60,169 nucleotides of DNA, filler included, from Hausera hauseri (GCA_046269625.1; 12 parts of 12 records of this genome joined end to end with filler, not necessarily neighbours in it), one strand, 5' to 3'; shown: positions 8,317 to 53,434, numbered from the whole stretch's first letter. Numbers and translations: made by a program. Notes: generated from the letters alone by a model not told the origin.

Positions 8317-8425
8317 TGTGGTGTCCACAGCGGCTGGCACCGTCTGGCCTATTTGGTTGGACACGGCCGGGCGTCCGTTGCGGCAACGTCGGGTACATAG
8401 TTGGGCCCGATTCCCCGACTCGGAA
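8317..8425 (+). mobile_element. Gypsy LTR 5' head (copy A), abutting the pPolB gene
   Basis: TGTGGTGTCCACAGCG...GGCCTATTTGGTTGGACACGGCCGGGCGTCCG...GGGCCCGATTCCCC aligns with the PPT-preceded LTR start at 20179(-) and with copies at 45034(-) and 53434(-). Confidence 0.8.
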
Positions 8426-9602
8426 ATTTCACTAATTTTGTTCAAATTTTGGATTATGTGTAATGGGCACAGGACGTGCTGCCCCGAGATCTACTGAACG
8501 TTTTTAATATTTAAAACAGTTGACTTCCGAATACCAACAATCTGATCAATTTAATCATCGAAACCCAATCGTTGCCAATCTTGCAAATATTGCGTACGAT
8601 TGTCGTAATTATCGATATTTGGTTAGATTGAACGTCCTGGACGTATTTTTTTCATTGTTTAACGCAACAGGACAGTACCAAGTACATTAAATTGCGTTCC
8701 GTTATTGGTATATGCAACATATGTGCAAATCAACCATATCATTCGATAATTTGCAACAACGACAATTTATGGTCATTGCTGAATTGTTTATCGTCACCAA
8801 ACATTGACATTGTCATCATAGCAATCATCGCCTTCATTTATTTATGCGAAACCGACATCAGCCGAAGTTCAGTCCTTTTGCCGACCGTCGTCAAGACCTG
8901 TCGGAATTTGCCGCAGTCAACGAATCCACGATTGCTGAACATTGCCACCATATTTCTCTATCATTGTGCTACACCAAACTGCCGTGTGATTTTCTCGAAT
9001 GACGTTCCGATACAATTTCTGGTTGTTGCCGAATCACCTGCGCATTTGCCACTGTAAACCGGTCGTCCGTGTTTTACCTGGTTTCATCACGATTTTCTTG
9101 TTATCTGATGGCAGTTCAGCGACAATTTTCCGTCCGGAATGTCTCTAGCCGACATGTGTTAGTGTGGATTACGTCCGTCACTCACTGCAAAAAATGTCCC
9201 CAGCTGTCGTTGTCAATGGGGAATTGTTTGTCAATCCTAAAAATCCACCATCACAATCTGTCGAGAATATAATGTTAAACAGCGCACTCAGTGCCGCGTT
9301 ACCGTTATCCCAGCAAATCGATATTTATTGGAAACTCGCCAAATATCTGACTTACATTTCTCGTAGTGCTGACTGCCTACTGTGACAGTCTCATGACCCC
9401 AGTACAATCGATCCATGGTTGTTGCTAATTGCCAGTGCCTGTACGTTGTCTACTAGTCCATCAGCGAATGCCTTCAATCAGGTCATTGAAATACCATTTG
9501 ATTTTCAAATGGTTCGTACTCGAAATCGACCACTTGTAGTCGGCAAATTGAGCCCATCACATGCCATACTATTTGCTACAATGAGTTCAATTGTTGAATT
9601 AT

Positions 9603-10492
9603 CTCCACTGGTGTATTGTTCATAATGGTGGTCTTCTAATTCTCACTGCTTATTTGTTGATTAGAGTCCGTGCATGGAGTAAATGCCCTATACAAATATT
9701 TGTCGTTTCCAGTGAAACTAATCACACTATCAATTTAAGAAAAGAATTTAAACAATTCATTTATGATTTTCGAATTGCTGCCGACGTAGAAATTGTCGAA
9801 TTGGATCAAGCTGACATTTCAGCTTATGTTTTCCAACGAACAATGGACATGGATATGCGAAAAAACTCATGGAAAACATGAATTTCGATTCAACACTATA
9901 AGTTCAATCAATTCGTGACAAACATCATACAAAAGGAGATGAGTTGAACTTTGTTGCTGATGCAAAAGCAAAATTGATGTCTGTTCCTAGTATCAGTATT
10001 GATATTGAAGATTACGACGCAAAGAGCAACATTAAATCGAAAGAAGATGACAACAAAGTGCATACCAATCCAGTCGAAAATACTCAATCAGATGGAATGA
10101 AAACATCGACTACAGAACAGATACTTATTTTCACAACTGATGCTACTCCACAGCAAAATCAGCCATCAGTAATCTTTGCAAATCCAGTAAAACCACACTA
10201 GAATGAAACATCAGAACGAAATAATGAATTTACATTTTCTCCCACGGCACTAAAGGGAATGAAACCTCCATGAACCAACAGACGAATGCACAATGCCGTA
10301 AAATTAAACGAAATGATCCGCGGTAAATCTCAAAATGCTTGTTTGGTTCTCGTCAATCTTTTCAGTCCATCAAAGGACAAAACGAGTGATTACAATTACA
10401 TGGAATACGTCGAAACGCTTACCGAAGGACTCTAACGAGTTTTGTTAGTCTGAAGAACTGGCAAAGAAGTCATTACAGCATTTACCGAATAA
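9603..10492 (+). pseudogene. Intronless K-Cl cotransporter (SLC12A4-7/KCC-type) C-terminal domain fragment
   Basis: WCIVHNGGLLILTAYLL..AWSKCPIQIF...RIAADVEIVELDQADISAY; RMHNAVKLNEMIRGKSQNACLVLVNL...NYMEYVETLTEGL*RVLLV*RTGKEVIT. Contains a frameshift and stops, and no introns. Confidence 0.9.
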
Positions 10493-11122
10493 ATCCAATC
10501 ATTGGCANNNNNNNNNNNNNNNNNNNNNNNNNNNNNNNNNNNNNNNNNNNNTTAATTAATTAANNNNNNNNNNNNNNNNNNNNNNNNNNNNNNNNNNNNN
10601 NNNNNNNAGGAGGGGCAAATGAAAAAGCGTGATCCGCTGTACTGTACTGCATAATATCTGGACATTGTGTCTTCACATAGCTGTCGTTCATGTACCTTGT
10701 TGGTACAATAATTAAAGTTACAAATCTATATGGTGATATAATAGTATAACACAATTAAAATAATATACCATTTTGATACGTACAATAAAGTTTCAAGGTA
10801 CAAACTTCATCACTTTATTTATAGTAAATATCATTCAATCAAATTTCAGCCAATCAAAATGAAGTATAGCAATGATTAAACAATATACAGTCTAAATGTC
10901 AATAGTTAAGTACTTCATATGTATGAAAGACACTAGATAACTGTATAAAGTACAATTTTACTTAATGCGTGTGTGTGAGTGACACTAGATAAGTGTATAA
11001 TGTACAGTTTTACTTAATATGTGTGTGTGTACAATTAATATGTGTATGCGTTTTTTTAATGCGATTTTAGGAGTTTTCGCGCGGCGCTTTGCGCTGCGTT
11101 TCGAATAGGAGGGTGGTGATCC

Positions 11123-14100
11123 ACTTGTTAGGTGATGCACTTATTAGGTGATGCACTTATTAGGTGATGCGCTTATTAGGTGAAGCACTTATTACGTGAC
11201 GCACTTATTAGGTGACGCACTTATTAGGTGATGAGATTATTAGGTGATGCACTTATTAGGTGATGAGCTCACTAGGTGATGAGCTTATTAGGTGATGCAC
11301 TTATTAGGTGATGCACTTATTATGTGATGAGCTTATTAGGTGATGCACTTATTAGGTGATGCACCTATTATTTGATGCGCTTATTAGGTGATGCACTTAT
11401 TAGGTGATGAGCTTATTAGGTGATGTACTTGTTAGGTGATGCACCTATTAGGTGATGCACTTATTAGGTGATGAGCTTATTAGTTGATGCACTTATTAGG
11501 TGATGCACCTATTAGGTGATGCGCTTATTAGGTGATGCACTTATTAGGTGATGAGCTTATTAGGTGATGCACTTATTAGATGATAAGTTCATTGGGTGAT
11601 ACACTTATTAGGTGATGCACTTATTAGTTGATGCACTTATTAGGTGATGAGCTTATTAGGCGATGCACTTATTTGGTGATGAGCTTATTAGGCGATGCAC
11701 TTATTAGGTGATGCACTTATTAGGTGATGCAATTATTAGGTGACGAGCTTATTAGGTGATGAGCTTATTACTTGATGTACTTATTAGGTGATGAGATTAT
11801 TAGGTGATGCACTTATTAAACGATGCGCTTATTAGGTGATGCACTTATTAGGTGATTCACTTATTAGGTGACGAGCTTATTAGGTGATGAGCTTATTACT
11901 TGATGTACGTATTAGGTGATGAGATTATTAGGTGATGCACTTATTAGGTGATTCACTTATTAGGTGATTCACTTATTAGGTGATGCACTTATTAGGTGAT
12001 GAGCTTATTAGGTGATGCACTTATTAGGTGATGAGCTTATTAGGTGATGCACTTGTTAGGTGATGCACCTATTAGGTGATGCACTTATTAGGTGATGCAC
12101 TTATTAGTTGATGCACTTATTAGGTGATGAGCTTATTAGGTGATGCACTTGTTAGATGATGCACATATTAGGTGATGCACTCATTAGGTGACGAGCTTAT
12201 TAGGTGATGCACTTATTAGGCGATGCACTTATTAGGTGATGCACTTATTATGTGATGAACTTATTAGGTGATGCGCTTATTAGGTGATGCACTTCTTAGG
12301 TGATGCAATTATTAGGCGATGAGCTTATTAGGTGATGCACTTGTTAGGTGACGCACATATTAGGTGACGCACTTATTAGGTGATGAGCTTATTAGGTGAT
12401 GCACTTATTATGTGATGCACTTATTATGTGATGCACTTATTATATTATGCACTTATTAGGTAATGTACTTATTATGTGATGCACTTATTAAGTGATGAGT
12501 TTATTAGATGATGCACTTATTAGGCGATGCACTTATCGGGTGATGCACCTATTATGTGATGCACTTGTTAGGTGATGCACATATTATGTGATGCACTTAT
12601 TAGCTGATGAGTTTATTATGTGATGCACTTATTATGTGATGCACTTATCAGGTGATGCACTTATTAGGCGATGAGCCCATTGAGTGATGCACTTATTATG
12701 TGATGAGCTTATTAGGTGATGCACTTGTTTGGTGATGCACCTATTAGGTGATGCACTTATTAGGTGATGCGCTTCTTAGTTGTTGCACTTATTATGTGAT
12801 GTACTTATTAGGTGATAAACTTATTAGGTGATGAGCTTATTAGGTGATGCGCTTATTAGGTGATGCACTTATTTGGTGATGCACCTATTAGGTGATGCAC
12901 TTATTAGGTGATGAGCTTATTATGTGATGCACTTGTTAGGTGATGCATCAATTAGGTGATGCACTTATTAGGTTATGAGCTTATTAGCTGACGCACTTAT
13001 TAGGTGATGCACTTATTACGTGATGCACTTATTAGGTGATGAGGTTATTAGGTGATGCGTTTATTAGGTGATGCACTTATTACGTGATGCACTTATTAGG
13101 TGATGCTCTTATTAGGTGATGGGCTTATTAGTTGATGCTCTTATTAGGTGATGCGCTTATTAAATGACGCGCTTATTAGGTGATCCGCTTATAAATTGAT
13201 GCGCTTATTAGGTGATGCGCTAATTAGTTTATACGCTTAATAGTCGATTCACTTAGTAGATGATGCACTTTTTAAATGATGAACTTATTCGGTGATGCCC
13301 TTCTTAGGTGGTGCGCATATTAGGTGATGTCCATGTTTCTCGATGCACTTATTAGTTGATGCGCTTATTAGGTGATGCACTTATTATGTGAGGCACTTAT
13401 GAGGTGATGCGCTTAATAGGTGGTGCGCTTATTATCTGATGCCCTCGTTTGTCGAAACATTTATTCGGTGATGCGCTTATTATGTGATGCGATTGTTAGG
13501 TGGCGCGCTTATTAAATGATGCTCTTGTTTGGCGATGCACTAATTAGCTGATGCGCTTATTTCGCGATGTACGCACTACGTGATGCACTTATTAGGAGAT
13601 ACACTTATTAGGTGATGCACTTATTCTTTGATGCACTTATAGGTGATGCCCTTATTAGGTGATGCGCTGATTAGTTGATACGCTTATTAAGTGATGCACT
13701 TTTTAGGTGATACGCTTAATAGGCGATGCACTTATTATTTGATGCACTTCTTAGGTGATGCTCTTATTATGGGATGCGCTTATTAGGTGATGCACATATT
13801 AGTTGATACACATATTAGATGATGCGCTTATTAGGCGACGCACTTATTAGGCGATGTACTTATTAGGAGTTGCGATTATTATGTGATGTACTTATTAGCT
13901 GATGCGCTTATTAGATGACGCACTTATTAGGAGATGCGCTTATTTAGTGATGCACTCATTAGGTGATGCACTTATCAGGTGATGCACTTATTATATGGTA
14001 CACTTATTAGGTGAATCGCCTATTAGGTGATACGCTTATTAGCTGATGTGCATCTTAGGTGAAGCACTTACTAGGTGAGGCGCTTATTAGGTGATGCGCT

Positions 14101-19786: not shown

Positions 19787-20077
19787 NNNNNNNNNNNNNN
19801 NNNNNNNNNNNNNNNNNNNNNNNNNNNNNNTTAATTAATTAANNNNNNNNNNNNNNNNNNNNNNNNNNNNNNNNNNNNNNNNNNNNGGCATGAACATTCT
19901 TTTGATTTGTCACAACTTTTGGTATGGTTAAATATACTAATACTATACAAACAACTTGGTTGATTACCACATGAAACATTACTTGCATAACATTTAAGAG
20001 CTTGTATTAACGTGTGCGACTGATTAGTTCTATCTGTCTGTTATCTAACGTCGCAATCTTATTGTGCCGTTTCGAGG

Positions 20078-20935
20078 TGGAAGATCAGGGCCCGCCTATG
20101 TGCCAGACGCGTCGGCAGCGGACACCCGACTGTGCCCAACCAAATGGGCCAAAGGGCACCGATCGCTGTGGGCATTACATCACTCCCCCCTCCGTGGCAA
20201 AGTGAAAACTATAAAGAGTAAAAGGGCAGAGAGAAAAAAATCGCAAAACGAAAAGTGTCTGTGTCAGCTGAGCTCAGTGTGAATAAGACGTTGGGTACCT
20301 TCAACTGATTTCTCCCTGCTATATTTGCTAAATGTGACTCTGCGTGTTGTATCTTTATGCGGTGTGTTTGTTTGCAGACATTGAGGTTAGGGAAAAAATA
20401 TGTTAGATTGTGGTGTATGTGTTGTGTCGTGCGAAGATAAGTCGGAATAAAGAGAAGAAGAGGGCGAAGAAAAAAGAGAAATTGCAGAAGGCGGATGGTT
20501 AAAGGCATTGAAAGGAGTGTTAGAAGACGAAAAGTGATAAAAGGTGTAGTGGCGGATAAATGAAGAGAGAAAAGGGTTGGATTAAAAATTGTAATTGAGT
20601 TGGATGTAAGAGTGCAAGAGGAAGATGAAACAGAGGGAGTGGTGGAGATAAGAAGAGTGGTAGGAATAAAAGTAGAATGTTTAGAAAATGAGGCAGGATT
20701 AGGAGCGGAAGGGGGAGATGGAACAGGTGTAGCAATAGATATTGGAATAACAGGGAATGTGGGAGTGGGAAAAGAGGTTGACGTGTAGGTTGGTAAAGTG
20801 TAGTCGACGAAGAAGGCGGGCTTTAAGTTGGTAATACGCAATGTAAGTTCTTTGCCATCTTTAGAGATAATGGCGTTGTGTAAGTGCAGTTGTATCAGTT
20901 TATAGGGTCCCAGGTACCTGATTCTTTAGCCATAC
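20078..20935 (-). mobile_element. Gypsy 3' end: integrase GPY tail, S/P-rich extension, PPT and 3' LTR head (copy B)
   Basis: GPYKLIQ...LRITNLKPAFF; PPT GGAGGGGGGAGTGA (20193-20180) directly followed by TGTAATGCC at 20179. Confidence 0.88.
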
Positions 20936-26088: not shown

Positions 26089-26130
26089 TGTGGTGCCGCG
26101 ATGGCGGGCGCGTCTGGTTCTTCCGACGGA
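26089..26130 (+). mobile_element. Short LTR head (copy G)
   Basis: TGTGGTGCCGCGATGGCGGGCGCGTCTGGTTCTTCC resembles the PPT-preceded heads at 45589(+) and 34386(-), and the start plus end of the long head. Confidence 0.6.
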
Positions 26131-26666
26131 AAGATTTCGTCCATTGAACAATCCATCCAAAACAAACCTGTTCGGATCACTTCGAATTCAGAAAGAATAT
26201 TCAGCAGGAATTCCGGTGAAACTAAATAATGCCTTATGCAAACCCCGATGGTTCTTATACTGTAATTGTTCTAATCAAGTGGTATAAATATCGGCCAAAT
26301 CTTTCGTCTCTCAAACCATTGGACAAAATGAATTTGGAGTAAATGGAAGCGATTTACGTTACGGCATTTACCGTTTAAGAAAAGTGGAATTTATAGGTTG
26401 GATGACATCCTTAAAGAACTCTACACAGCACCATGGTTGGTTTTATTTACTTGTTTCAGCACAAGAAATTGTTGATTAGTTCATGTACCACAGATGTATT
26501 CAATTTCTGCTGCGAAACTCTGTTCCTAACTTAACTACATTTAATGATTTTGGATATTGCCGTGTTTCTGCCTTTAATTAAAATTTGTTAACATAGAATA
26601 CATTTTATAATTGATGATTGATAATTGATTACAATAACGTTTGAATAAATTTTTACATTACGACTT

Positions 26667-29600
26667 TTGATTTTGGGATTTTCTCAGATTATCGTTGATA
26701 TTCGCTTTGGAATTTATTTATCAACATTAAAACTGGTGTCAGAAGTATTTTTCATTGTGTGGTGCTTTTCGGCAGTTTACTTAATCTTATTCTTTGTTTC
26801 ACTGGTTTTGGGATATCATTCAGAAAAAAAGTTGAAGATGTTTATCATATTTTTGATTGTTTGCAGCGATATATTTGTGTTCAGTCATCCTATAGTATCA
26901 GTCATCATTCTACTCCATCCATCGTTGTTTTACAATTGCACATTGACGACAAAGATTTTACACAATGTTGGATTATATAATTACTTTTCCATGAAGTACT
27001 ACCATATTATTCGTCTCATATTGCCGGATGTCTACGTATTTTTGGTATCCATTTTTGTGCTCATTTTTCTACACAGCTCGTCTACGGAGATGGACAGTTT
27101 CGAGAATATGCGCAACAAAATTCTGGATTCTTGGCTTTATCAAAGAATAAAAATCATTTTTACTCAACTTCTAATATTATTCGTCAGTATATTATCTCCT
27201 TCATTTACGAATTTCACCTATTTCTTCATGTTCATTCTCGTCGATACAATGTGGGCCGGCGGATTGCGAATTACATCACGATGTCTTTTGTCTATACGAA
27301 CATTCATCATGACCTATTTGGCGATCAATATTAGTTTAATTTATGCTGTACAGTTTGAATATTTTCGAGAATGGTTTCCAGACAATAAATTACATTCAAG
27401 ACTACTCGGGATTTATCATTTCGTCGAATTCCCATGTAGAATTAAGAATGAATTTAATGTTTTACGTCAAAGGATTTACGATTTCCTTGTTCCGCCGATT
27501 TTGGTTATATTGTACTACATTCATTCATTCGATAGTGGTGTATATTTTGATACGAAAACATTGGAGAACCTTGCCATAATGCCACAGTTTTTGAAACGCA
27601 GAGGAGCCCACAGTTATATCAATTCCAGCAACGAAACAAAATCAGAAATCATTAATGTTAGTCGTCCATTTACGTGGAGCATAATAAATTCAGTTATCAG
27701 AAACAGCTATATATTATCATTTATCGCCATGATGGTATGGAGTGTTGCATATACATCGTGGTTAACGTTCTTGTTTATTTTCACCGCATGTATTCTATGG
27801 TTAATGCCAGACGCAAGAAAGGCTTGTTTAATGTGCAGTCCCGCCATAGTAGCATATGGGATTGCAATGAACTTGGCATTTTATCTTTCAAACATAAACA
27901 TACGTGACTTAATCAATTTAATTTTGTCCCGTTTTTCATATTTGCAATTGACAACCTTTCAGTCGGATATTCCATTTGTGCCACTCTTGCTTTCGTTTGT
28001 ATATTTGATAATATTCTGGATGACTCTAAAAATTCTAGACAAAGAAAGAGAACGGAAGTTAGAAGCTATGGTACCCGGAGCTCCACAGTTTGAAGATAAC
28101 AAACTGTACAAATTATATGTGGTATTCATACGCTACGTTTGTACCAAATATTGGCTGGTTGTGTGCTGTATAAGCTTACTGATGGAATCATTACAGAAAA
28201 CAACGAACGCTATATTTATCATCTATTTCATACTCATTACATACTTTTTATATTTCTTTATGTTACAATATAATGTGTGGAGAAAGCAACTCTACGCATT
28301 CCTATGGGTTGTCGTGGGTTATTCACTCATAACCGTATTCGCAATATATACATTCCACTTCAAAATCTTCCGAGATTTATGGATTAAACTGGAATATATA
28401 TCTGGAATTAAACTTAGTGACATTGGCTTGAATTCGTATCCTCCTCACGATTTATTCGAAGCTCTAATGACTCCCGTTTCGCTTCTTGTTATTACTATAA
28501 TACAAGTGCGTTATTTTCATCAAGTCTTTATGAAAATAATTTCATTTGATACCAGAGACGGAGGAAAACGAGAATCACCATACAGACTTAAAATAACAGC
28601 ATCAACACTTTCAGCGTATGATCAAAACTTTGTTGTTTCAACATTTCATATATTGTTGGCCCGTATGCAAAGATCGAAAGGTCCTCAAGAATGGAACTAC
28701 TTTGTATCAGACGTGAACGCAGCATTCGTTATAATAGCAAGTAAAATATCAGTTTACATCAGGATTTTGGGTGATAAATTTTGGATATTTCTTGAAATCC
28801 ACATAACAAAATTCGTTATTTTTTTAATATCCTACGTAATAACAAATGATGTCAATGATTATCATTTTGACTATGCTCTTTTGGTTGCTTTACTCTTTCC
28901 CATTACACGTTTACATAAGATATTCATTTTACTGTTGTATACGCTTTTGGTAGTACAAATGTTGTCGCGAATGATCTTTCAACTTACTTTTGTAAATGAT
29001 GAGCAGTGGATTGTTGACTGCAACATTAAGAATATATTTTCTGTAAATCGCAGTACGAGAAATATGAATCTTGCAGTATATTTCGGATACACCAAATTCC
29101 ATAATTTCAGATCATCCAACTGGTTTATAACATTCAATATAATTCTATGTGCGTTTTGGTTTGTTTTACTGTACCATCAACACAGGAGAGAAACATGGCC
29201 AAGAGAAAAGAGCGTTTTGTTTCCTGAAGCCAGCTGCAAAAATGCCAACGATTCAGTGGTCAATATTTTAAAACTTACATTGAATTATATTTTTTACAAA
29301 ATAGGCTTGGAGTTATGCTTAATAATGACTGTTATTGATGCATATATACGACTCGATGCCATCTCCATGTTTTACCTAGTATTACTGTTACTATATCTTC
29401 CCTCATCTAGATTATTATGTTCACAACTTTGGCCAATATACTTAGTAATTGTCTGTTTGCTCATACCAATCCAGTATATGATTTGTGTTGGTTATTTTCC
29501 AGGATTTTGCAAAGACTATATGGTAATCACAAACCAGAACTTGGTCAAATGGCCTTTTCTTCCAAATTATGAAATTCCTCTAGAATCCAAAAAAATATTC

Positions 29601-29900
29601 GTCGATGTACTTCTCCTTGTCTTCATTTGTTGTCAGTACCACGTATTTCGTATTGAAAAACAATCATTGGACTACAAAGGTGGACGAAACATTCCAACCT
29701 TAGTCAACGATATGCCCGATATTGAAAAGAAGGATTTCACGGTTGCTGAAGTATCTGAGATATCAGACACCGTCCAGTGGGTGCCTGCAGAAGAGAAGTT
29801 TTTAAACACTTACAGCGAAGAATCAAAAGATGACTTGTCGGTATCAAAAGGTAATCATGATGATTTCTATCAATTTGATCTCAGTCCAATAAATTCTCTG
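26667..29900 (+). CDS. piezo: Intronless Piezo mechanosensitive channel N-terminal half (truncated, probable retrocopy; no pore domain)
   Basis: Multi-TM ORF with Piezo signatures NC...ILHNVGL..IIRLILPDV, SFIAMMVWSVAYTSWLTF, FWIFLEIHITK, FYKIGLELCL, LWPIY..QYMICVGYFPGFC, DVLLLVFICCQYHVFRIE. About 1,080 codons with no intron or stop. Confidence 0.9.
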
Positions 29901-29902
29901 GT

Positions 29903-29952
29903 TGGGGAACCGAGCGTGCCCGCCCCCGCTGCGCCGCGTCACTTATCCCTGT
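29903..29952 (-). mobile_element. Inverted short LTR head (copy H) with PPT-like AGGGATAAGTGA
   Basis: Reverse complement ACAGGGATAAGTGA-CGCGGCGCAGCGGGGGCGGGCACGCTCGGTTCCCC aligns with ACAGGGGGTGA-TGTGGTGCTGCGGTGCTGGACACAACTCGTCTTCCC at 45578-45624. Confidence 0.55.
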
Positions 29953-30157
29953 TAATTTTTTTTAATAACATGCACATCAGTACCTTTTATGCTCCACACA
30001 CGGGTACCTTGCATTGTCTCTACTCACATCTAGTCTCTCTCCTCCACTCGTCTGAATNNNNNNNNNNNNNNNNNNNNNNNNNNNNNNNNNNNNNNNNNNN
30101 NTTAATTAATTAANNNNNNNNNNNNNNNNNNNNNNNNNNNNNNNNNNNNNNNNNNNN

Positions 30158-34251: not shown

Positions 34252-37200
34252 TGTGCTGTTCGTCTGCTAAACAAGATATAGACCAAACGGTAACAAAGCG
34301 GGACAAAAATCGTTCCGGCCTAGCTGCGTCAAACGGTGAATCTATTGCCAGAAATTGAGGGCCATGTCCTAGACCGTGGCACTACATCTCCCTCCCGTGG
34401 AAAAAAAGGAACTGTAGAGTGAAAAAGAAGGAGGTGAAACGCTAAATTGTTTAGTGCCTATTGGGTTTGGTGTGTATGAGGGGTTCTGTTCCGTCTATTG
34501 ATTTTTGCTTGCTATAGGTGCTGAATGTCACTCTGCGTGTCCTATTTGGTTGGTTTGTGCTTGGTTGTTGAACGATGTTTTGTGGTGGACGTTTTGTAGG
34601 GTTTTCTGATTCACTGTGCTGTGTTGCTTGAGGTGAAGAGGTTGAAGATTGTAGAGGGAATAAATTGAACGAGAGACGCGAAGAAACTGAAGGTGGTGTG
34701 GATGAGGAAAAATGAGAGAAAGAGGCGTGAAGAGAAAACTAAGTAAGCGATGTAGATTCAGTAAGCGGTTTGCAAGTTGGGGGTGCTTTAGTGTGAGAGA
34801 AAAGTGGTTGCTGTAACGGAGCGAAATCATGGAGAAAGTTTGAGGAAGGAATGGAAGAAGTGAGAGTTGAGTTGGAGTTGGAGGTACAATCGGCATCCGG
34901 ATTGTCATCAACGAAAAAAGCGGGCTCAAGGTTTGAGATGAGGACATTGTAGGGTTTTTCTTGGAGTAGAATGGTAGCTGTATGAGATGAGAGGTGAAGT
35001 AGTTTGTATGGACCAACATACTGAGGTCGAAAACCCGAAGATGATTGATTCTTTAGCCATACAAATTTGGTTAAGTATAAATTCTTTGGTATGTACGATA
35101 TGTTATTGTTAAATAAGCAGCAGAATGAGTTTGAGTTGACCTCGACAAAGTGCGACTGTGCCGCGCGAATGCTTTCATCTGTCGGATTGTCAACAAGGTG
35201 GGAAAGTTCAAACAGGGCCCGTGTTGGAGTCCCAAAAAGTGCCTTGGCTAGAGCACAACCCGTGGTGGTAGAAGGAGTGTTGCGCCAACCGAGTAAAACG
35301 AATGGCTAGATGGACGTCCAATTGCGATGATTGTCTGCTAGGACTTTTAAAGAAATTTTCATAGTTCGATGGAATCTTTCAAGGAGTCCATTTGCTTGTT
35401 GGTGATACGGTGTTGTATGGAAATGTGATATTCTCAAGCGTTTAACAAGCGATTTAAAAAAATCTGACTCGAACTGCGGACCTTGGTCCGTTATGATGTG
35501 TCGTGGGGATCCGAAGCGATTGATCCAGATTTTGATGAAGGCGTCTGCTACTGAATCAGTGTTTGTTGAACGGAGAGGTACGGCTTCAAGCCAGCGAGAA
35601 GCACAATCCATCATAGTGAGAATATGTTGATACCCGTTGTCGGAAGGTAAAGGTACGACGAGATCAAGATGGATGGTATGAAAACGTGATGTACATGGGA
35701 AATGGTAAAGCGGCAATTTCAGATGTTTGTTGACTTTGTATTTTTGACAGGCGACGCATTCTTTAACCCAACCCTGTACATCTGTGAGCATTGATGGCCA
35801 AACTACATTACGTTGGAGCAAGCGAAAAGTGGCTTTCGAGCCTGAATGATAGAGTGAATGCGTGTGAAGAAAAGCTGGCTTTTGCAGAGAAGGAGCGAGA
35901 ATGATTTTTTTATTACCGGGGTTAGATGTGTCGTATGCGATTCCACCAATGATTTTGAAGGATTTGAAAGAGTTAAGAATATCTGCAGACGGTTGATTGA
36001 GCTTTAGAATTTCAGTAGAAAATATTGGCTCTACCGTAATTGAGCCGATCGACCGTGATAGGAAATCCGCAACCAAATTTTCCGTACCTGAAATATACTT
36101 TATGACAAAACTAAATGTGCATAGGTACTATATCTGTCGTTCCTGCTTCGGTGATGGTTGTTTTAGTGACATGATGTGTAGCAGAGGCTTGTGATCTGTT
36201 TGGATGATATATGGACGAGAGAGGAGGAGATGTTTGAAATGTTTTACTGCCGGAACTATGGATAGTAGCTCACGATTGAATGTAGAATATCCGCTTTCTG
36301 GTTGTGTAAGTTTTCGAGAGTAAAATTCCAAAGATTCATCGATGCCGTTGGAAATTTGGTGTAATATTGCACCAGTAGCTGTGGAAGAGGCATCGGTGGT
36401 AAGTCTTAGTTCCGCGTCGGGTTTTGGGTAGGCCAGTATTTCGGCGGTTTTTAGGCCTTTGCGTAAGTGATCGAATTTGGTGACTAAATCGGGAGTCTAT
36501 TGGATTAACTGTCTTTTCTTTCCAGATGAAAGGTGTGCGAAAGGTGCCGTAAGCTTAGAGCAATGTGGTATGTATTTATGGACAAAATGTAGTGTTCCAA
36601 GAAAACTTCTCATATCTTTAGTGGTCGTTGGTAGTGTAACGTTTTTTAATTGCTGTAGTCGATCAGGTTGTGGAGAATGGCCGTGAAGAGTGATAATGTG
36701 GCCTAAGAAATTGACGCGTTTCTGAAAGAAATTGCACTTAAAGAAATTAACATGTAAGTTTTTATGACGTAGTGTGTGATAAGTGATTTGGAGGTGTTTA
36801 TGGTGTTGTTTCACGGATTTGGAGGCAACTAATATGTCGTCGATGCAGAGATGAGAAAATCAAGGCCTGAGAGAACAGTGTCGATGTGGCGTTGGAAAGT
36901 TTGTGCTGCGTTACGTAAACCGAGTGGCATAAACATGTATTCGTAAAGTCCAAATAGAGTGATGACAGCAGTCTTTGGGATGTCATCGTGTGCAACGGGA
37001 ATTTGATGGTAGGCTTTGTGAAGATCTATTGTGGAATAGGTATTGGTGTTGTTAAGACTGTGTAGGATGTCTTTTATGAGCGGTAATGGGTAAGCATCCA
37101 TGATGGTTAGATTGTTCAGTAGACGGTAATCGCCACATGGTCGAAAGGTACCGTCCTTTTTGCCACTACATGTAATGGTGAAACCCATGGTGATTTGGGT

Positions 37201-41142: not shown

Positions 41143-41167
41143 TATTTGATAATAATTAAAAACAGTT

Positions 41168-43320: not shown

Positions 43321-44927
43321 NNNNNNNNNNNNNNNNNNNNNNNNNNNNNNNNNNNNNNNNNNNNTTAATTAATTAANNNNNNNNNNNNNNNNNNNNNNNN
43401 NNNNNNNNNNNNNNNNNNNNCAAACACGCAAACTCCACGTTTCCAATATCATTCGAACGCCCGTACCCTACTCTACACACCTTCTCTCTCTCGTCCATTA
43501 CTTCTCAAATTTTGCTTCTGGAAAAAGTTTGTATTTCTTTCTTTTGTATTTCCCGCCTTTGTCTTTTGCGACACGCAAAAACCTACCGCACCATTGAACT
43601 CGCCGATGTCGAACTGACCATAAACCGTTCATTTTCCGGCGGTAGCATCAATCGTTCCATTGAAATTCACAACTTTTACTTTCGCCTACTTTTCCTCCTC
43701 TCTCTGGCCGACTTTCCCACTTTTCCCAAACGTGCAAACACCATTTTCTGTCCTGATTCTGACATGAAATGAATTGTATGTGTCGGATATATTCTCCATT
43801 AAATTTCTTACAAGTTAAAAATTTTTGGAGATTTTAAATTCATTAACCAAGAACACTGACTCAAATTGAATTAAACAGCTATACGAATGATTTGAAGACT
43901 CTTTCGTTGCCCATATTAACATGGGTTTCAATATCAAAGGTCCTTGAATAATAATCGACAAAAGAAAACAAACTTTCCAAAACTACGAAACTAAGTTTGA
44001 TATCGCACAAATTGAAAATCGTAACTCAAGTTCTTCAAAGAAAATAGCGGAATATGTATTTATTTAAATCTTTTTCAAAAGAATTTTATTATTAAAACAA
44101 GTTCGTTTTTTCTTTTTTACATCTTTTTACAAGGCCATACGAAAAGACACACACAAGTCCGGCGAATCCGGCACATCGTCAAATTAATTGTCTTCTGGGC
44201 CGGGAACTGCTGACTGGTCTGACTACCATTATTAGTGCTGTGATGAGTGAATGGTTGATGAGACGAATTAAATTTTGCGATTGCTGTGGGAGAACCGCCG
44301 GAATCATTTATGAATTCAAATGCTATGGACTTGTCTGAATTTGTTCGGCAGCGATATTAGGTTGTTGTCTTGGAATACTGAACTGGTTTCATTCAAAAGA
44401 CACTTCACTCTCTTGAGGTTGAGCAGCATATTATACAGGTGATTCTACTCCTGCAGCGACATTTTTGATATGTAAACGATTTTCTCAAACGAGAGCTCAC
44501 TTGAGTCAACGTCGAAAAAGTCAGCTAATGGCGCTCGTTAAGGTGCTTTTTAAAGTTCTCCTCGATTTTGTTCTAATTTCTCAATCGCCTGTCGAATTTT
44601 CTGATATTTGGAGGTGAGGAAAGTATTTGCCGATATTGATTGAGCTACAAAGTTTGTAGTCGGCATCATTTTGTTGTCATTCATTTTTGGAGTGTCATTT
44701 ATCTGTAATGGCAGAATGGATAGCTAATCGGCTGACTGAATGAGACTGCCGAAATTGAGTGCCTCATTGATCATGTTCAGGGCGATCATATTGTCCGCAA
44801 TTGTGCCGCTGTTACCTCCGCCAATGAAAAATGATTGGTTGTTCGGAGTGGCACATGGGTAAGGCACCATTGACTTGCTGGCACCACTGAATAGTGTGGA
44901 CTTTAATGAATTGTTTTGCATTAGTTT

Positions 44928-45034
44928 CTGAAGCGGGAGATAGGGCCCGACTATAAACCCAACGCGGCAGCAACGGAGGCCCGGCCGTGCCCGACCAAAT
45001 GGGCCAAAGGACACCGGCCACTGTGTGCACTACA
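44928..45034 (-). mobile_element. Long LTR head (copy C), abutting the integrase tail of another Gypsy copy
   Basis: TGTAGTGCACACAGTGGCCGGTGTCCTTTGGCCCATTTGGTCGGGCACGGCCGGGCCTCCG...GGGCCCTATCTCCC; abuts NNVHISNLKPAFF. Confidence 0.85.
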
Positions 45035-45630
45035 ACAACGTTCATATTTCGAATCTGAAGCCCGCTTTCTTTATTGATGTCAATCCGGATGCCAATTTTA
45101 CCTCCAATTCGAACTCAACTCTTACTCCTCACATGCCGTCCTCAGATTTTCTAAATGACTTTGCGCCGTTGCAGCAATCACTTTTCTGTACTTCCCCTTC
45201 ATCATCTCCACCACTTTCTTCACCTTCATTACCTACATCGACTGTTTCATCGCCTTCAATTGAATCGCTTTTTTATTTGACCCATTCTCGTTACCACCTT
45301 CATTATCTTTATCACAAGCAACACCGGACACTCAACCAGATAATTTCACAAAACTTCTATCACAGAATGTCGCTCAACATCCAAACACAAATCAATCAAG
45401 TAAGGCACGCAGTGACATTAGCACCTACAGAAAGGAAAAGTTCTTTAATGGTACACAACGCCTGATACATACTAAAACCGAATAGGCATTAAAAATTGTT
45501 CCTTTGTTGCGATTCATTGTTTTCATCTTTATTATTTTTATCATTCTTTTTTACATTTACATAGTTTCTCTTCTGCCACAGGGGGTGATGTGGTGCTGCG
45601 GTGCTGGACACAACTCGTCTTCCCATCAAA
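45035..45630 (+). mobile_element. Gypsy 3' end with PPT and short LTR head (copy F)
   Basis: VHISNLKPAFF, S/P-rich tail, GTQRLIHTK, then AGGGGGTGA followed by TGTGGTGCTGCGG at 45589. Confidence 0.85.
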
Positions 45631-46481
45631 ATGCTGGTCGAGTGAATGAAGAATTTCATCAGAAAGTATGTCAAAATTGCACAGTCCATCAAAAGTCCCA
45701 GTGATTATGCCATCTACATTGCTCACAAACAGTTTCCGCAATGAAATCAAGATATCTCCCAATCGAATCATCGGAACCGGCTTCGCGTCGCCGGAGCGTT
45801 ACCTTCAATAACCAAGTTGAAGTAAAGGAATTCTCTGGTAATTCGTTTGACAGTGACCAAGCGATGCATCGGACGTCAGTGCCAGCGGCGATACAGCTTT
45901 GAAATTAAATCGCGATATCGACCGAATGCGTGAAAAGATTTGTGAAAAACGTACGAATTCGTCGATGAAATCGTTATATTCAACACCATTCGGTGGAAAA
46001 TCGGTTACTAACAAATCATCAGATCTTGCCGATTTGATAACAAGCCGGTGAAAGGTGGAAGTATCACACACGGAAACTGGTCTGACTGGAGTTCAGAGTG
46101 GAATGCTGAGTAGAAGTGGAGCATTGAAAAATGTCACTGTACGATCGAAAACTCCAGAATCCGTTGCAATGTGAAAAATCTACCAGTCGTCAAGTCAGCA
46201 GCAAACAAAAGCAACAGAGGAAAGTATTGCCAGTGAGTTGTCTGACGAAGAAAATGAAAAACAAACCGGTGGTATGCGGTGTTCAATTATGTAAAAGATT
46301 CATTGTTGGTTCTCATGTCTACATGCACTAACGCTGTACTTTACACTTATCTTTATGATTAAGGAAAATTGATGAAATTGATTACATGTTAGTTTAAAAA
46401 ATATATACATTTTGTACGGAGTTAATTGTTGCTACTGATTGAATTTACTCTAAACATGCTACGAAAATTGATTCTATAGGA

Positions 46482-47871
46482 CAGCCGACAGCATTTCGCA
46501 CAGTTGCTGGATGAAGCGCCAAAACATTTCTCAAAACCGAAGCTGCATCAAAAGAAGGTTATAGTTACTGCTTGGATCTCGAAAACTTCATTCAGTATCT
46601 GAAGAATGGCCAAGACCTGTTGACGCATTTCCAAAACAAAAAATTGACGACGCAGTCACTGTAGATTGCACTGGTAAAAATAAGTGATTTCCACCACCAG
46701 ATCAGAAATATTTCCTGAAGTCATTTTTTTGATTTGCAGAATTATTTCCAAAAACCCTAGACAGCTTCATCGAGTTAGAAAAGAACTGCATTTGATGTCG
46801 TTGCATTCGGTGTTGCTGCATTAAACCCGGATCCGAAATCAGTGGATTGGCCATTAAATATCGAAGAATTATTCCCAGTATTAGTTGAACCCAATCCAGT
46901 ATTAGTTGACCTAAAATTAAAACTACTATTAGCAGCTGCTGCTATGGCCGCAAAACATGGAATTCGAAAAAAATTCCAAATTCTGATTTGTTTTCGAATT
47001 ATTACCAATACTGAGCATAATACTTCGTTGATTGCTACCGAATACATTACCACTAGGCCGAAATATTGCACTTGACGCATTTGTAGAAGTACTACCCAGA
47101 TGAAGGTGACCTATACATCCCGTGTGCACTGATATTGTTAGATCCAAATGGAAATGAATTGTTCATTCTTGTAAATTTTAATTCTAATTAAATTTCTAAA
47201 TTTAAAAATACACAGCAGTTTGACAAATTTCTAAAACGTATCTGCATCAAGAAATTTAAATGACTTTCCAAGAAGAATATATTTCAAAAATTCAAAGTAG
47301 ACAGTCAATTTTTTGAATATTTAAACAATGTTTATACACAACTAATCATGAGGCTAATGTGGGCGGTCGGCAAGTGGTTTCACTGCAACTTTGTAAATTC
47401 TGGCGAAACCGTCATATAAGAAAGGTATTGCCAGAAAGTCGACAAAATGCACCAAAACTGCAACATTTATGGTCAGAATTGGTCAATCAAAAAGGTCTAA
47501 TTCTTCTGCATGACAACGTCTCACAAATTACTGCGCAAAAATTGAACAAAGTGGGATACGAAACTGTACCTCACCCAGCTTACTCACCAGACCTCTCATC
47601 GACCGACTACCGTTTTTTCAAGCACCTCCAAGACTTCCTGCAAAAAAGAAGGTCTTCAACAGCCAAGCAGTAGCTCAAAATGCCTTTTAGGAATTCATTG
47701 GTACTAAAACTCCGGAATTTTATGTTGCCGGAATAAATAGACTTGCTTCTTGTTGGCAAAGATGCATAGATTTTAATGGTTATTTTGATTAATAAACTTT
47801 ATTCTAAGCTGAAATATATCGCTTTAAACTTTATAGTTAAAAACCGCTATTATATTTGCACAAACATAATA
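46482..47871 (+). mobile_element. Mariner (cecropia/Hsmar1-like) remnant interrupted by a ~780-bp insert
   Basis: EAPKHFSKPKLHQKKVIVTAW | ...LLHDN...PHPAYSPDLSSTDYRFFKHL...WQRCID; 3' TIR AAAAACCGCTATTATATTTGCACAAACATAA near 47840-47870. Confidence 0.9.
46580..47166 (-). pseudogene. FG-nucleoporin-like N-terminal fragment
   Basis: MNNSFPFGSNN...GNVFGSN...SFNFRSTNTGLGSTNTGNNSSIFNGQSTDFGSGFN...GFGNN...FCFGNASTG; S/T/N-rich FG repeats; frameshifted. Confidence 0.55.
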
Positions 47872-48901
47872 ATTGATTATAGTTGCTCATATGGCAGTCT
47901 ATAACCAACCACACATACATAATTAATTATCATCGAAACAATAATTTATGACGAAAAAAGGAAATTGACAATTATGTGCTTCAAAAATATAATCAAAAGT
48001 ACCCACTTCTCCTGATTACATCAGATATTTTGACCTCTGTACAGAAGTAGATATTTTCAAAATTGTTGCTTTTCCGTTCAAAATATATCTTCAGAATTTC
48101 TGCATAAAGTTCCTACTTTTTTGTAATTTTGATCTCCGTTCAGACGTTGCAATTACATCTTTTTTTGTCGAAACTGAGCACGGAAAATCACTAAAATTGA
48201 ATTTTTGATAATATAGAAGTTCAAATTTTCAGTCGCAAGAACGCATAAACCAAGCAAGAATTTAATTGATTATGCAAGTAGGTGAAAACGCAGTGTCCAG
48301 AACAAGGATAGCATATGAGCACACATTTGCGACATGAACACGCATGTCTAGCATGTGAGCACAAATATAGATAATGTAAAAGCACGAGCATGAGAAAACA
48401 TGAAATTTTTTCACGCTCTCTTACTAAGTACGTAATGTTAGGATTGTGATAAAGTTAATAATCAATGAGCTCGCATGGTAACTACCCCCATGGCCCTGCT
48501 AATGCCCTCTTTTTACCCCATAGGGTGCAGCGAGGAGTCAGTTTTGCATGAGGTTTATTTAAGGAAATTTAAAATGTTCTACATAGTTTTATAATACATA
48601 TTTTTACTCACTAAACAGCGAGACGTTTGTTCTACATTAATTATTTACTCCCTCCTTTCTTAGACATTTAATCATCCTGTTTGATTAAAATATTAGAAAA
48701 TCTACCATAACACGTTTCTCAGAACTGAGCAGTAGCATTTTCGGATAAGAATAATAAAACATTAAAATATTTATTTACAAATAATTGCATGTCAGTTTCG
48801 TNNNNNNNNNNNNNNNNNNNNNNNNNNNNNNNNNNNNNNNNNNNNTTAATTAATTAANNNNNNNNNNNNNNNNNNNNNNNNNNNNNNNNNNNNNNNNNNN
48901 N

Positions 48902-50760: not shown

Positions 50761-52109
50761 TTGTGTGCTAAAATTAACTTTATAGGTTTTATTGGAAAAC
50801 CGTTATTATGGATGAAAGTACATTTGCACATGTGCGACACATCTGAAAAGTTCTATATAGATGCATTAAAACATGGGGAATCGACTGGCGCTCTCAGATT
50901 CCTCAAAAAATGTATGGGTGTCATGGTAATCGATACTATTCGGTGAAAATAGATATTTATTTGAATTGTGCACCAAATTTCGAAAATCTGAAATAGAAGA
51001 CTCGGTTAAAACTTGGCAATTCCTGTTTGTTCCCGCTTAAACATTTGTCGAATTTTGACCCCTTAGGGTCTAAAAAACCTATGGGAAATCTGTCTCAGTT
51101 GCAATTTGGATCAATATTATTAGAAATCGACTCTATCGATTTAAATTCTAATTGCACATTCACATAGTGCATCGTATTACCAATCGATTGCACCCGGTGC
51201 CGGGTGCCAATCATCAATATTGGCAATATCGTAAATCCGATATAATTGATTTTTGAATACTTTGACATGCGCTGCGCACCTGCACTGTGCACCAATCGAC
51301 ATGCACTAATGAGCACTATCGACTAGGACTTTGTCCAGATCGATTCTATCAATATTGCAGTGTGCAGCGATCGATTTCTGAAATGTGTAAAAATGTGCTT
51401 AGCAACGGTGCGTAGCGGCACCATCGCCTAGCACACTACCGATCGATAGTGCACCATGTGCATTATCGACTGGCACGTGCAAAATTGATTTATTCATTAC
51501 CTCCTACTCTACGGTTGTTTTGCCATGAAAATACCAAGAATCCCTTAGTAGAGTGAATAGTTCACCGTTCGATATTTTCGAATCTCTCCCGATAAAAATC
51601 GGACTCAAATACCCCGTCTTTAGATCGTCAACAATTTGGTTTGAGAATTTTCAGGTCGAACTAACCAACGATCAAATCACAAAATTTTTTTAGGGACAAA
51701 GATTTCTTGTAAGTGCTGCACAGAATGCAATATTTGACATAAACATATGAATCACGGGCAAAATTGATCGTATAGTGAAATTAGACAGTAGAATTGAATA
51801 ATAAGTCCAACTGAACAATAAGAACGATTAAAAACGATCAAAATATCTAAAAGCTAATCGCGACTGAATAAAAAATTCTAAAATGGAGACGGGAAAAGTC
51901 AGAATTCAAAATTCACATGTATTTCTATTTCTTTTGGTAGTCACAAACAAGAAAATAACGAGTTTATGGCAAAATTTGACAGGGACTGGACGGAGTATCA
52001 TACAAGGACTACAAAATATATTATCTGGAGTGAGAGAAACGAAAGACAATTACGAAATCATACATTTTTATTTAATCAGATCTAAACTTATCACGGTATT
52101 TCTATCGTA

Positions 52110-53300
52110 TGTGCCACTTGTCAGATCGTGTTTGAATTGCAGTAACTGACCCATAAAATTGAAATTCGGCGATATGATACTCCGCGCTTCACCCACTTAT
52201 GGGCATCGTTTAAATCGAGATTTTGACAATGGCACATAAGGTATGCGATGACTATTGTCGCTGATCTACCCACACCGGCTTGGCCCATTGGAACTTCGAG
52301 CATGCTCGATAAAATGAAATGTTTCGGGAAAATACTGAATGAGATCCTGAACGTTATTGTCTTGACAATCGATTCGTTTCGATTGAAATCAAATTTCGTC
52401 GAGAAATGATACGGTGAGAGTTAAATTTATTACGTAAGTGATTTTATTCCCAGTAAGAAATGTATTGTTCAACGTATCGAATTCGTTACCGATATAAGGA
52501 AAAGGTAATATCTGACTAGCTTTGAAATAATAGATGTCTGTCGTGTCTGCAATGGATTTAGGAATTTGCAAACACAATGCGTTTGTCGAACCGCTATCGC
52601 ATAGGTTTGGATAGGCCTTTTCGAAGTGTTTTATGCCGCCGGACAGATATAAACAATCGATGTCGTGGTTGAGCAAAAATTGAGTCAGCATTGTGATATG
52701 GTCATCTTCCTTAATTGGATAACCGAATTCCGTATAAATGATCACGTGTTCCGGTTTCGATAACTTCAGAGTTTCATTGATTATCTGAATGGCACGTCTG
52801 CTTTTGAGCTTTGACGAACAACTTGCCAGTTTTGCAGTCGTTATGTGAAATCGAAAAGAACTACAAGCGGACCTGAGATCGAAATTCGCCGTCGATAAAT
52901 TGGGAGTATTTAACATATCGTCTAATTCCAGCGAATTGACTTTGGACATTCGTTCATCGAGTTCAAAGTCGAAACTCGTAACGATTTTATGGTGCAACGT
53001 TGGACTGGTTTGTTCGGCGAAAAACGTTGGAAATCGATTGATGAAGAGCACCGGCTGAGAATTCATAATGAGACGTTGAGGAGTCATTGATGACTGAATC
53101 TGAACGGGGATCTGAACTGAGGATGGAGAAGAATTGGAGAATCCGTTGGTAACGACATTTGATGTTTCTTACTGTAAAACGTTTGAGCTGAGATTGATTG
53201 ACGGTAATGACGGAGATGGAGGAATGGGCAACTTTAAGTGGTTTGATTTGTACACGTTCCGTTAATCGGATGGAACGATAGCGTATTGAGACACATTTGA
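52110..53300 (-). pseudogene. Intronless MAP-kinase phosphatase (rhodanese + DUSP domain) pseudogene
   Basis: FDLRSACSSFRFHITTA...YLSGGIKHFEKAYPNLC (CH2/rhodanese); ASQILPFPYIGNE..KITYVINLT; QAGVGRSATIVIAYLM; ISPNFNFMGQL; the catalytic VHC is deleted. Confidence 0.9.
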
Positions 53301-53329
53301 ATTTGTCACAATGCTGTACTGATTTTTTT

Positions 53330-53434
53330 GGGGGGGAGATCGGGGCTTGCCTATGGGCCCGACGCGGCGGCAGCGGACGCCCGGCCGTGCCAAACCAAAT
53401 GGGCCAAAGGGCACCCCCCCCGGTGTGGCATGAC
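53330..53434 (-). mobile_element. Long LTR head (copy D), abutting a hAT transposase
   Basis: Reverse complement ...GGTGCCCTTTGGCCCATTTGGTTTGGCACGGCCGGGCGTCCGCTGCCGCCGCGTCGGGCCCATAGGCAAGCCCCGATCTCCC. Confidence 0.85.

What the first reader, a model, noticed from the sequence alone, without database searches (positions are those of the whole stretch)
8317..53434. Candidate host-mRNA-capturing LTR system: a conserved Gypsy LTR head followed each time by different, often intronless host-gene sequence
Seen: one GC-rich head occurs 8 times on 6 contigs. The long ~100-nt form is at 8317(+), 20179(-), 45034(-) and 53434(-). A short ~36-nt form, resembling the start plus end of the long one, is at 26089(+), 29938(-), 34386(-) and 45589(+). 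Three copies (20179, 34386, 45589) directly follow a Gypsy integrase tail and polypurine tract, so this is the U3 start of the LTR. Similarity stops at about TCYCCC..GAAA, with no terminal ...CA, PBS or gag. What follows differs in every copy: unknown coding-like DNA plus KCC (A), MKP/DUSP (D), unknown plus Piezo (G), and coding-like segments (C, F). The outer flanks are unrelated TE remnants (pPolB, hAT, another Gypsy, LINE-like) that do not resume after the head, so these are not short solo LTRs. Established: LTR elements can make retrocopies by template switching, usually in the internal region. Inference: this family may have multi-kb LTRs whose U3 is a variable cassette of captured, sometimes chimeric or antisense, spliced host mRNAs. 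That would be a gene-duplication and small-RNA-generating mechanism.
Basis: partly seen in the sequence, partly recalled or inferred. Interest (0 to 1): 0.9.

Follow-up and report, generated by a model that had tools for sequence, protein, structure and literature searches.

The report
Retrotransposon end fused to host genes
In what is probably a flatworm, a family of jumping genes has repeatedly joined the same short end-piece of itself to different intron-free pieces of host genes, stacked them and apparently multiplied them; gene capture by such elements is known, but a fixed joint at the element's terminal repeat would be a new variant.

Summary
The repeated head is real (8 of 8 found, 6 of 12 contigs) and is the 5' end of a CsRn1-type Gypsy LTR: 3 copies follow an integrase tail and polypurine tract. 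Similarity stops at one point, and 6 of 8 heads run straight into intronless coding DNA: ARMC7 + UbiA/COX10-like + KCC; an unknown ORF + Piezo + a second unknown piece; MKP/DUSP; two unnamed pieces. Cargo is sense to the head in 5 of 6. Public contigs bridge two of the joints, show alternative continuations and depth falling away from both heads, so capture, stacking and amplification are probably real. Piezo groups with trematodes. Best reading (0.45): host RNA copies joined to the LTR at a fixed point, also on the PPT side. Main rival (0.30): ordinary LTR retrocopies behind a complete short LTR. New variant of a known kind; long reads decide.

The parts
8317..8426 (+). Long LTR head (about 110 nt, 64% GC), not preceded by PPT; joined to a pPolB-like remnant upstream
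8463..9057 (+). Cargo: ARMC7, start to stop, intronless, with stops and a frameshift
   Evidence: (E 7.6e-8 to human ARMC7)
9194..9598 (+). Cargo: 5' part of a UbiA-family prenyltransferase (COX10 by recalled motif); start uncertain
   Evidence: PF01040, E 4e-15; PDB search blank
9600..10492 (+). Cargo: 3' part of a K-Cl cotransporter (KCC), joined mid-CDS to the UbiA piece; stops and a frameshift, no intron
20070..20179 (-). Long LTR head directly after PPT; followed by about 180 nt without coding signal, then contig end
20180..20973 (-). Integrase tail and polypurine tract in front of the 20179 head
26089..26132 (+). Short LTR head, not preceded by PPT; sharp left edge of an abundant unit in public contigs
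26135..26581 (+). Cargo Y: unnamed coding 3' part, 2 stops in 148 codons
   Evidence: Pfam and PDB blank (19, 27)
26582..26687 (+). Operon-like spacer: AATAAA at 26644 and pyrimidine-rich acceptor ending at 26687, in frame with Piezo codon 2-3
26688..29737 (+). Cargo: 5' half of Piezo, one open frame of 3.05 kb, no ATG, no intron
29729..29894 (+). Cargo X: unnamed coding piece, in frame with Piezo, antisense to the 29938 head, far more abundant than Piezo; other contigs enter it from a different left side at 29729
29895..29938 (-). Short LTR head facing the 26089 head; begins CGC instead of TGT
29939..30057 (-). Purine tract plus 107 nt of abundant upstream sequence that travels with X and the head
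   Evidence: records 23, 24, 32; loose end at 29950
34343..34386 (-). Short LTR head after PPT (most divergent); about 90 nt non-coding with a TATA-like word, then contig end
34387..38231 (-). Decayed CsRn1-type Gypsy internal region: gag CHCC motif at 38231, protease, RT, RNase H, integrase, PPT
4698..7041 (-). Second decayed pol fragment of the same family (65% nt identity to the one above), not attached to a head
44925..45034 (-). Long LTR head joined cleanly into the integrase tail of another copy
44170..44924 (-). Cargo: unnamed coding-like piece, probably sense to the 45034 head, then AT-rich 3'UTR-like DNA
45035..45588 (+). Integrase tail and PPT in front of the 45589 head
45589..45631 (+). 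Short LTR head directly after PPT
45632..46294 (+). Cargo: unnamed coding-like piece sense to the PPT-side head, then 3'UTR-like DNA and mariner-like remnants
   Evidence: sense 30.1 vs antisense 1.4; contrary strand call
53326..53435 (-). Long LTR head with degenerate first bases; hAT-like remnant upstream
52068..53325 (-). Cargo: MKP/DUSP (rhodanese + phosphatase domains) to its stop, intronless, with stops and frameshifts

Best explanation
A CsRn1-type Gypsy family in a flatworm-like animal copies host RNAs with its reverse transcriptase and joins them to its LTR at one fixed point, the 3' edge of a conserved GC-rich 45 or 110 nt LTR start. Most likely the element's RNA ends (or nearly ends) there, so a cDNA growing along a co-packaged host RNA can jump onto that end with little homology and then copy head, PPT and internal region. 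This gives PPT-head-cargo copies; PPT-primed plus-strand synthesis then gives DNA that begins at TGT and carries cargo in sense. Further switches stack more cargo, and cargo-bearing copies are re-mobilised in trans. Shown: LTR identity of the head, fixed break, different intronless decayed cargo, two mid-gene fusions, bridged joints. Inferred: RNA origin, the jump, amplification by retrotransposition. Unknown: where the right end lies (a true multi-kb LTR pair, or ragged right ends).
For: PPT-head layout matches complete CsRn1-type elements fetched here. Four long heads lose similarity within a few bases of each other. About 6.2 kb of named coding sequence from 5 genes has no intron and is pseudogenised or fused. 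Cargo is sense in 5 of 6 readable cases, including PPT-side 45589. Both PPT-side heads with more than 200 nt downstream (2 of 2; 2 of 4 PPT-side heads in all) run into coding-like DNA, against 14% cargo in the window. Heads hold no TATA-like word or poly(A) signal (0 of 6 tested alone), unlike both fetched complete LTRs, and no PBS follows any, yet head+Y has a sharp left edge and high depth. Depth falls stepwise away from both heads in c6 (X1: about 1200, 340, 110, 51 from the left; 1000-1900, 87, 65, 51 from the right), with alternative continuations at 26167 and 29729. Piezo and X overlap in a 9-nt word where Piezo homology ends.
Against: No right end, shared R-U5, PBS, gag or second direct head downstream of any head; TSD 0 of 8. 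Published CsRn1-type LTRs are short and end in AAA/ATA, which fits a complete 110-nt LTR. X is antisense to its PPT-side head, that head begins CGC, and its upstream DNA is as abundant as X, which is not what a symmetrical LTR pair gives. The cargo behind 45589 is unnamed and an earlier, cruder test called it antisense. The Y-Piezo join keeps an operon-like spacer, so that template was not a mature mRNA. Contig depth is not copy number, and only 1 of 6 head-bearing contigs was laid against runs.
Confidence: 0.45

Rival explanations
1. Ordinary LTR-mediated retrocopies behind a complete, very short LTR. The head is the whole LTR (TGT...AAA). Non-PPT heads are 5' LTRs whose PBS-gag-pol was replaced by host RNA pieces; PPT-side heads are 3' LTRs and what follows them is the insertion site, by chance other cargo (45589) or a nested inverted insertion carried along as a passenger (29938).
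For: TGT...AAA/ATA ends and 146-407 bp LTRs in CsRn1-like elements (PMC2582038); relatives L009 and L004 have short LTRs. Sense, partial, multi-gene, microsimilarity-joined, re-amplified cargo is exactly Tan et al. 2016. Explains the antisense X, the CGC start and the conserved upstream DNA at 29938, and the non-coding DNA behind 20179 and 34386. Integrase tails of 550-790 nt in c5 and c10 resemble 3' remnants of non-autonomous elements.
Against: 45 nt is far below any LTR listed; heads are 64-67% GC without TATA or poly(A) words whereas fetched LTRs are 31-38% GC with them. No PBS behind 4 of 4 non-PPT heads, so re-priming is unexplained although head+Y looks amplified; a PBS-like reading of the head end failed (1 of 8 at p<0.05). 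No 3' LTR found 1.6-4.5 kb downstream. In Tan et al. the switch points lie in internal ORFs, not at the LTR edge.
Confidence: 0.3
2. DNA-level capture or simple adjacency: the host has compact, natively intron-poor operons, and LTR ends have been joined to genomic gene segments by aberrant (one-ended) integration, deletion or recombination; segments were then duplicated.
For: Two gene-to-gene joins are stop-to-start with spacers of about 105 and at most 140 nt, the size of flatworm operon spacers (PMC8629364, PMC12582326). Piezo lacks ATG and starts at an in-frame acceptor, as for genes whose AUG comes from the flatworm spliced leader (PMC9851317), so unprocessed sequence is retained. No poly(A) tract seen behind any cargo.
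Against: No intron in about 6.2 kb from 5 genes would need an unusually intron-poor flatworm (recalled: flatworm genes usually have several introns; not tested). Does not explain sense orientation in 5 of 6 or the fixed break. Cis-spliced but unresolved polycistronic RNAs are an alternative source of the spacer.
Confidence: 0.15
3. Assembly artefact: short-read contigs walked through collapsed repeats and joined unrelated pieces.
Against: Head-Y is bridged in run X1 (record 3) and X-head-PPT in run X4 (record 32, another study); run X2 follows Piezo 30 letters into X (one short of the tool's 31-letter rule). Joints with 9 nt or less of overlap cannot be made by a k-mer graph. Six different cargos break at the same head position.
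Confidence: 0.1

Closest known systems
LTR-mediated retrocopies of animals (Tan et al. 2016, PMC5131818; abstract and sections 5, 8, 10 read)
   Same: Partial, mostly sense host pieces inside LTR-element sequence, several genes in one copy, short shared words at switch points, re-amplification, in one family a fixed switch site.
   Different: There the cargo replaces part of the internal ORFs between two normal LTRs and cases are few (15 polymorphic in Drosophila). Here the joint is at the edge of the LTR head, no PBS follows, PPT-side heads also carry cargo, and 4 of 12 contigs hold it.
CsRn1-clade Gypsy elements PwRn1 and AgCR1-14 (PMC2582038; passages and section 5)
   Same: Gag CHCC motif, PR-RT-RH-IN order, GPY-type integrase tail, PPT then TGT, possible AAA/ATA LTR end.
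   Different: They have 146-407 bp LTR pairs, a Trp PBS and 4-bp TSDs, and no host cargo is described in the parts read.
Maize Bs1, Veju TRIM and BARE-2 (review PMC13317346, passages only)
   Same: Bs1 stacks pieces of three host genes; in BARE-2 a template switch put foreign sequence into an LTR.
   Different: Single events; the BARE-2 insert is from another retrotransposon, not host genes; no recurring joint.
Ogre and Burro giant LTR elements (review PMC6431247, passages)
   Same: Multi-kb LTRs exist (Ogre 1.9-6.5 kb); Burro is a flatworm Gypsy with host-like domains.
   Different: Their extra domains are in internal ORFs; LTRs made of changing host coding pieces are not mentioned in the passages seen.
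Pxyfem retrocopies of Plutella (PMC9674220, passages)
   Same: Multi-copy LTR-made partial retrocopies in transposon graveyards.
   Different: One gene, shown to yield silencing RNAs; here many genes and no small-RNA data.

Membership tests
CsRn1-clade Gypsy | Gag CHCC motif (C-x2-H-x9-C-x3-C) | tested here: met
   One match in the window, at 38231(-), upstream of the c8 protease
CsRn1-clade Gypsy | PR-RT-RNase H-integrase order with GPY/F tail, then PPT and TGT | tested here: met
CsRn1-clade Gypsy | tRNA-Trp primer-binding site behind the 5' LTR | tested here: inconclusive
   None behind any of 8 heads; the 5' end of the only near-complete copy is off the contig
CsRn1-clade Gypsy | 4-bp target-site duplication around an LTR pair | not testable with these tools
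   No element with both ends is on one contig; heads taken as solo LTRs: 0 of 8
CsRn1-clade Gypsy | Placement in the clade by RT/integrase tree | not tested
   Only similarity searches were run
LTR-mediated retrocopy (Tan 2016) | Partial host coding pieces, several genes in one copy | tested here: met
   c2: 3 genes; c6: 3 pieces
LTR-mediated retrocopy (Tan 2016) | Microsimilarity at switch points | tested here: inconclusive
   9-nt overlap inferred at 1 joint (29729-29737); parents of the other joints not available
LTR-mediated retrocopy (Tan 2016) | Cargo replaces internal ORFs and is flanked by both LTRs | tested here: inconclusive
   Cargo abuts the head; no second direct head in 1.6-4.5 kb downstream; contigs are short
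LTR-mediated retrocopy (Tan 2016) | Introns lost relative to the parental gene | not testable with these tools
   No genome held; cargo has no introns, parents unseen
LTR-mediated retrocopy (Tan 2016) | Secondary amplification | tested here: inconclusive
   Depth pattern points to it but contig depth is not copy number
Pack-TIR / Pack-MULE-like DNA element | Terminal inverted repeats with TSD around cargo | tested here: not met
   Inward-facing heads on 1 of 6 contigs only; the right one continues into conserved upstream DNA; heads follow PPTs
Multi-kb LTR element (Ogre-like) | Two near-identical multi-kb LTRs with defined right end and PBS | not testable with these tools
   No right end or PBS found on these contigs

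The most novel reading that the evidence does not exclude
The LTR of this family is a standing trap for host RNA: everything downstream of a 45-110 nt head is exchangeable cargo, added at a fixed joint and stacked over successive rounds, and PPT-primed copies with a sharp TGT left end and long or ragged right ends have spread pieces of many host genes in tens to hundreds of copies each through a flatworm genome. That would be a genome-scale exon-shuffling and retrocopy source located in the LTR, and a ready source of gene-matching small RNAs.
Probability: 0.35. Interest if true: 0.82.

Novelty: new variant of a known kind. Interest (0 to 1): 0.62.

Why it matters
LTR-made retrocopies are known as occasional accidents in the internal region. 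Here 4 of 12 contigs carry 9 different cargo pieces (about 8.2 kb, 14% of the window) behind the same LTR start. If the joint is set by the end of the element RNA, it makes a testable rule for where reverse transcriptase leaves and re-enters its template, and a route by which conserved genes (Piezo, KCC, MKP, ARMC7) are copied, fused in frame and amplified. In practice such copies would also be mis-annotated as host genes and inflate gene-family counts. Even under the ordinary reading the density is unusual.

Tried and rejected
No whole genome is held. Idea that all cargo is antisense to the element and heads are both ends of one LTR: suggested by a crude strand test, rejected by a frameshift-aware test with shuffles; still possible for c6 alone. 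Head end as a degenerate PBS: 1 of 8 at p<0.05, rejected. Shared R-U5 downstream: 9 of 84 comparisons reached the top of 20 shuffles, about 8 expected, rejected. Right ends by inverted-repeat motif: only the facing head in c6. Resumption of hAT or integrase on the far side: none. Conserved RNA fold of the head: z from -2.0 to +1.4 over 8 heads; Rfam blank. Head patterns in public collections: 0 in viral contigs, 1 in metagenomes, a chance match. Naming Y and the 45632-46294 piece: Pfam and PDB blank. No RNA holder listed; runs X3 and X4 held only 0.05 of the words and were used only after laying. The first tree run did not finish; a FastTree run was used. The operon tables in the supplement of PMC12582326 could not be read; they might show whether ARMC7-COX10 or Y-Piezo are known flatworm operons. 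Earlier-finding look-ups by place and sequence were empty.


Full report
Setting. The window is 12 unrelated contigs of 4.0-6.9 kb joined by N linkers, 32-42% GC, nearly all mobile DNA. No genome is held. The Piezo piece has its best hit in a trematode (33% identity, 433 bits against 323 for the next) and groups with three trematode rows at SH 98 on a long branch in a FastTree of 88 rows (names; rows covering under 400 residues were dropped). The host is therefore probably a non-trematode flatworm; the long branch makes this unsure.

Observation. All 8 heads are present on 6 contigs. The four long heads align in 6 of 6 pairs at 75-86%; identity falls from 0.50-0.95 over positions 1-110 to background within 20 nt. 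The short heads are related in 5 of 6 pairs, though leave-one-out profiles recover 2 of 4. No further copy was found.

The head is an LTR start. Intact relatives P0186 and P0187 (80-82% identity) map along c8 from protease to the integrase tail, and their tails also map just upstream of 20179 and 45589. c8 has the CHCC Gag motif of the CsRn1 clade (definition in PMC2582038, passages and section 5). The G-rich tract, short spacer and TGT match the junctions of complete elements in L009 and L004. The pol copies in the window are broken by stops and frameshifts.

What follows the head. Six of 8 heads run directly into coding or coding-like DNA; 20179 and 34386 have only about 180 and 90 nt before the contig ends, without coding signal. 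c2: ARMC7 from start to stop, a UbiA-family 5' part (the name COX10 is recalled from its motifs), then a mid-gene switch to the KCC 3' part. c11: MKP/DUSP to its stop. c6: unnamed Y, Piezo 5' half (3.05 kb open), unnamed X, then a second head facing the first. c10: two unnamed pieces. About 6.2 kb of named coding sequence has no intron; all but Piezo carry stops or frameshifts. A frameshift-aware strand test gives cargo sense to the head at 8317, 26089, 45034, 45589 and 53435 and antisense at 29938; a cruder test had called 45589 antisense, and the 45034 call is weak. The names pPolB, hAT and mariner for flanks are recalled from motifs; Pfam gave only Endonuclease_7 for the first.

Independent sequence. 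Four public runs of four studies hold c6 (shares 0.68, 0.45, 0.05, 0.05); their contigs were laid on c6 only, 1 of 6 head-bearing contigs. Head-Y is bridged in X1 (record 3), X-head-purine tract-upstream DNA in X4 (record 32). In all 4 runs a contig starts at 29729, and in X1 and X2 the listed loose ends show another left side there, so X is a separate module; homologues show that Piezo stops at this place. X2 follows Piezo 30 letters into X; the main X1 contig leaves the window at 29737 with 20 other letters, which brackets a 9-nt overlap but could also be native Piezo going on. X3 shows another continuation at 26167. In X1, per-contig depth is about 1200 beside the left head, then 340, 110 and 51, and 1000-1900 in X, then 87, 65 and 51; diverged unique-looking contigs lie at 4-6. 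That suggests about 10 copies of the Piezo piece and hundreds of the head-proximal pieces, but the tool warns that depth is not copy number, and mixed samples could mimic it. No contig spans c6.

What is missing. No Trp-type PBS behind any head, no TSD (0 of 8), no second direct head or shared R-U5 in 1.6-4.5 kb downstream, no resumption of the interrupted elements. So neither a multi-kb LTR pair nor a short-LTR pair is seen complete. Against a complete LTR: the heads are 64-67% GC, lack TATA and poly(A) words, and the short one is 45 nt. At 29938 the head starts CGC, and its upstream DNA is as deep as X (X2: 37.6 against 36.5), which fits an inverted passenger better than one of two equal LTRs.

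Nature of the template. Piezo has no ATG; homologues place its start at an in-frame acceptor at 26687, 38 nt behind AATAAA and about 105 nt behind the stop of Y. Flatworm operon spacers peak near 100 bp (PMC8629364, PMC12582326, passages) and the flatworm spliced leader can supply the AUG (PMC9851317, passages). This join looks like an unresolved operon, as may ARMC7-COX10. The template there was a polycistronic precursor or DNA, not a mature mRNA.

Mechanism. Best (0.45): cDNA made on host RNA jumps to the 3' end of the element RNA at the head's edge; this explains the fixed break, the A-rich joint, sense orientation, PPT-side cargo and lack of a PBS; later switches stack cargo; depth decaying from a sharp left end fits variable distal cargo or ragged right ends. 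All of these steps are inference. Rivals: ordinary retrocopies behind a complete short LTR (0.30), DNA-level capture of intron-poor operons (0.15), assembly artefact (0.10).

Known systems and novelty. It works like the LTR-mediated retrocopies of Tan et al. 2016 (abstract and sections 5, 8, 10) and Bs1 (review passages); membership is open because the flanking by two LTRs and intron loss could not be tested. Four earlier notes of this scan describe internal captures in other genomes (unchecked), so capture alone is common. In the listings of six searches aimed at cargo in LTRs no title or abstract start described recurring host-gene capture at a fixed LTR position; the library lacks most subscription journals, and an unreadable supplement may bear on the operon point. 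PMC2774510 (passages) added nothing on cargo inside LTRs. Verdict: real, new variant of a known kind, interest 0.62.

Noticed in passing
window 29932-29938 (-) and 26089-26115 (+): The 29938 head differs from the other short heads by 4 T>C changes in 27 nt (A>G on the + strand), including its first and third base, and run X3 carries the same letters; A-to-I editing of an RNA in which the two facing heads pair is one possible cause.
   Followed up: partly
window 14928-19786 and 55862-60169: Long ORFs with a CCHC knuckle (c4) and a ubiquitin-like domain plus a weak Monjiviricetes fusion-protein hit (c12, E 0.009) recall the giant Burro elements of planarians, whose env region matches mononegaviral fusion proteins.
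   Followed up: no
window 1-4592: Polinton-like remnant: integrase-like and ATPase-like frames (recalled motifs) and a dUTPase.
   Followed up: no
window 11115-14826: 16-bp satellite, 232 copies.
   Followed up: no
window 20974-25104: Virus-like or Polinton-like DNA with a RING finger at 24502-24810 abuts the integrase tail of c5.
   Followed up: no
window 46740-47110: Another coding-like piece (Ser/Asn/Gly/Phe-rich) between two overlapping mariner-like fragments; strand unresolved; may be cargo continuing past an insertion.
   Followed up: partly
window 19980-20064 (-) and about 48190-48280 (+): The DNA behind the 20179 head aligns weakly with a distant part of c10 (score 43 against at most 31 in 20 shuffles); if real it would be a flank repeat and favour a complete short LTR.
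   Followed up: partly
window 28885-29104: Run X1 holds a Piezo contig with 13 differences and 3 gap letters at depth 4.9: an older copy or an exon of the parent (record 8).
   Followed up: no
L009 6986-11260; L004 3577-7445: Complete CsRn1-type animal retrotransposons with LTRs, Trp PBS and PPT lie in contigs filed as prokaryote genomes, i.e. host contamination.
   Followed up: partly
window 25205-25530: Extremely deep repeat at the left end of c6 (depth sum over 140000 in X1) with short internal duplications.
   Followed up: no
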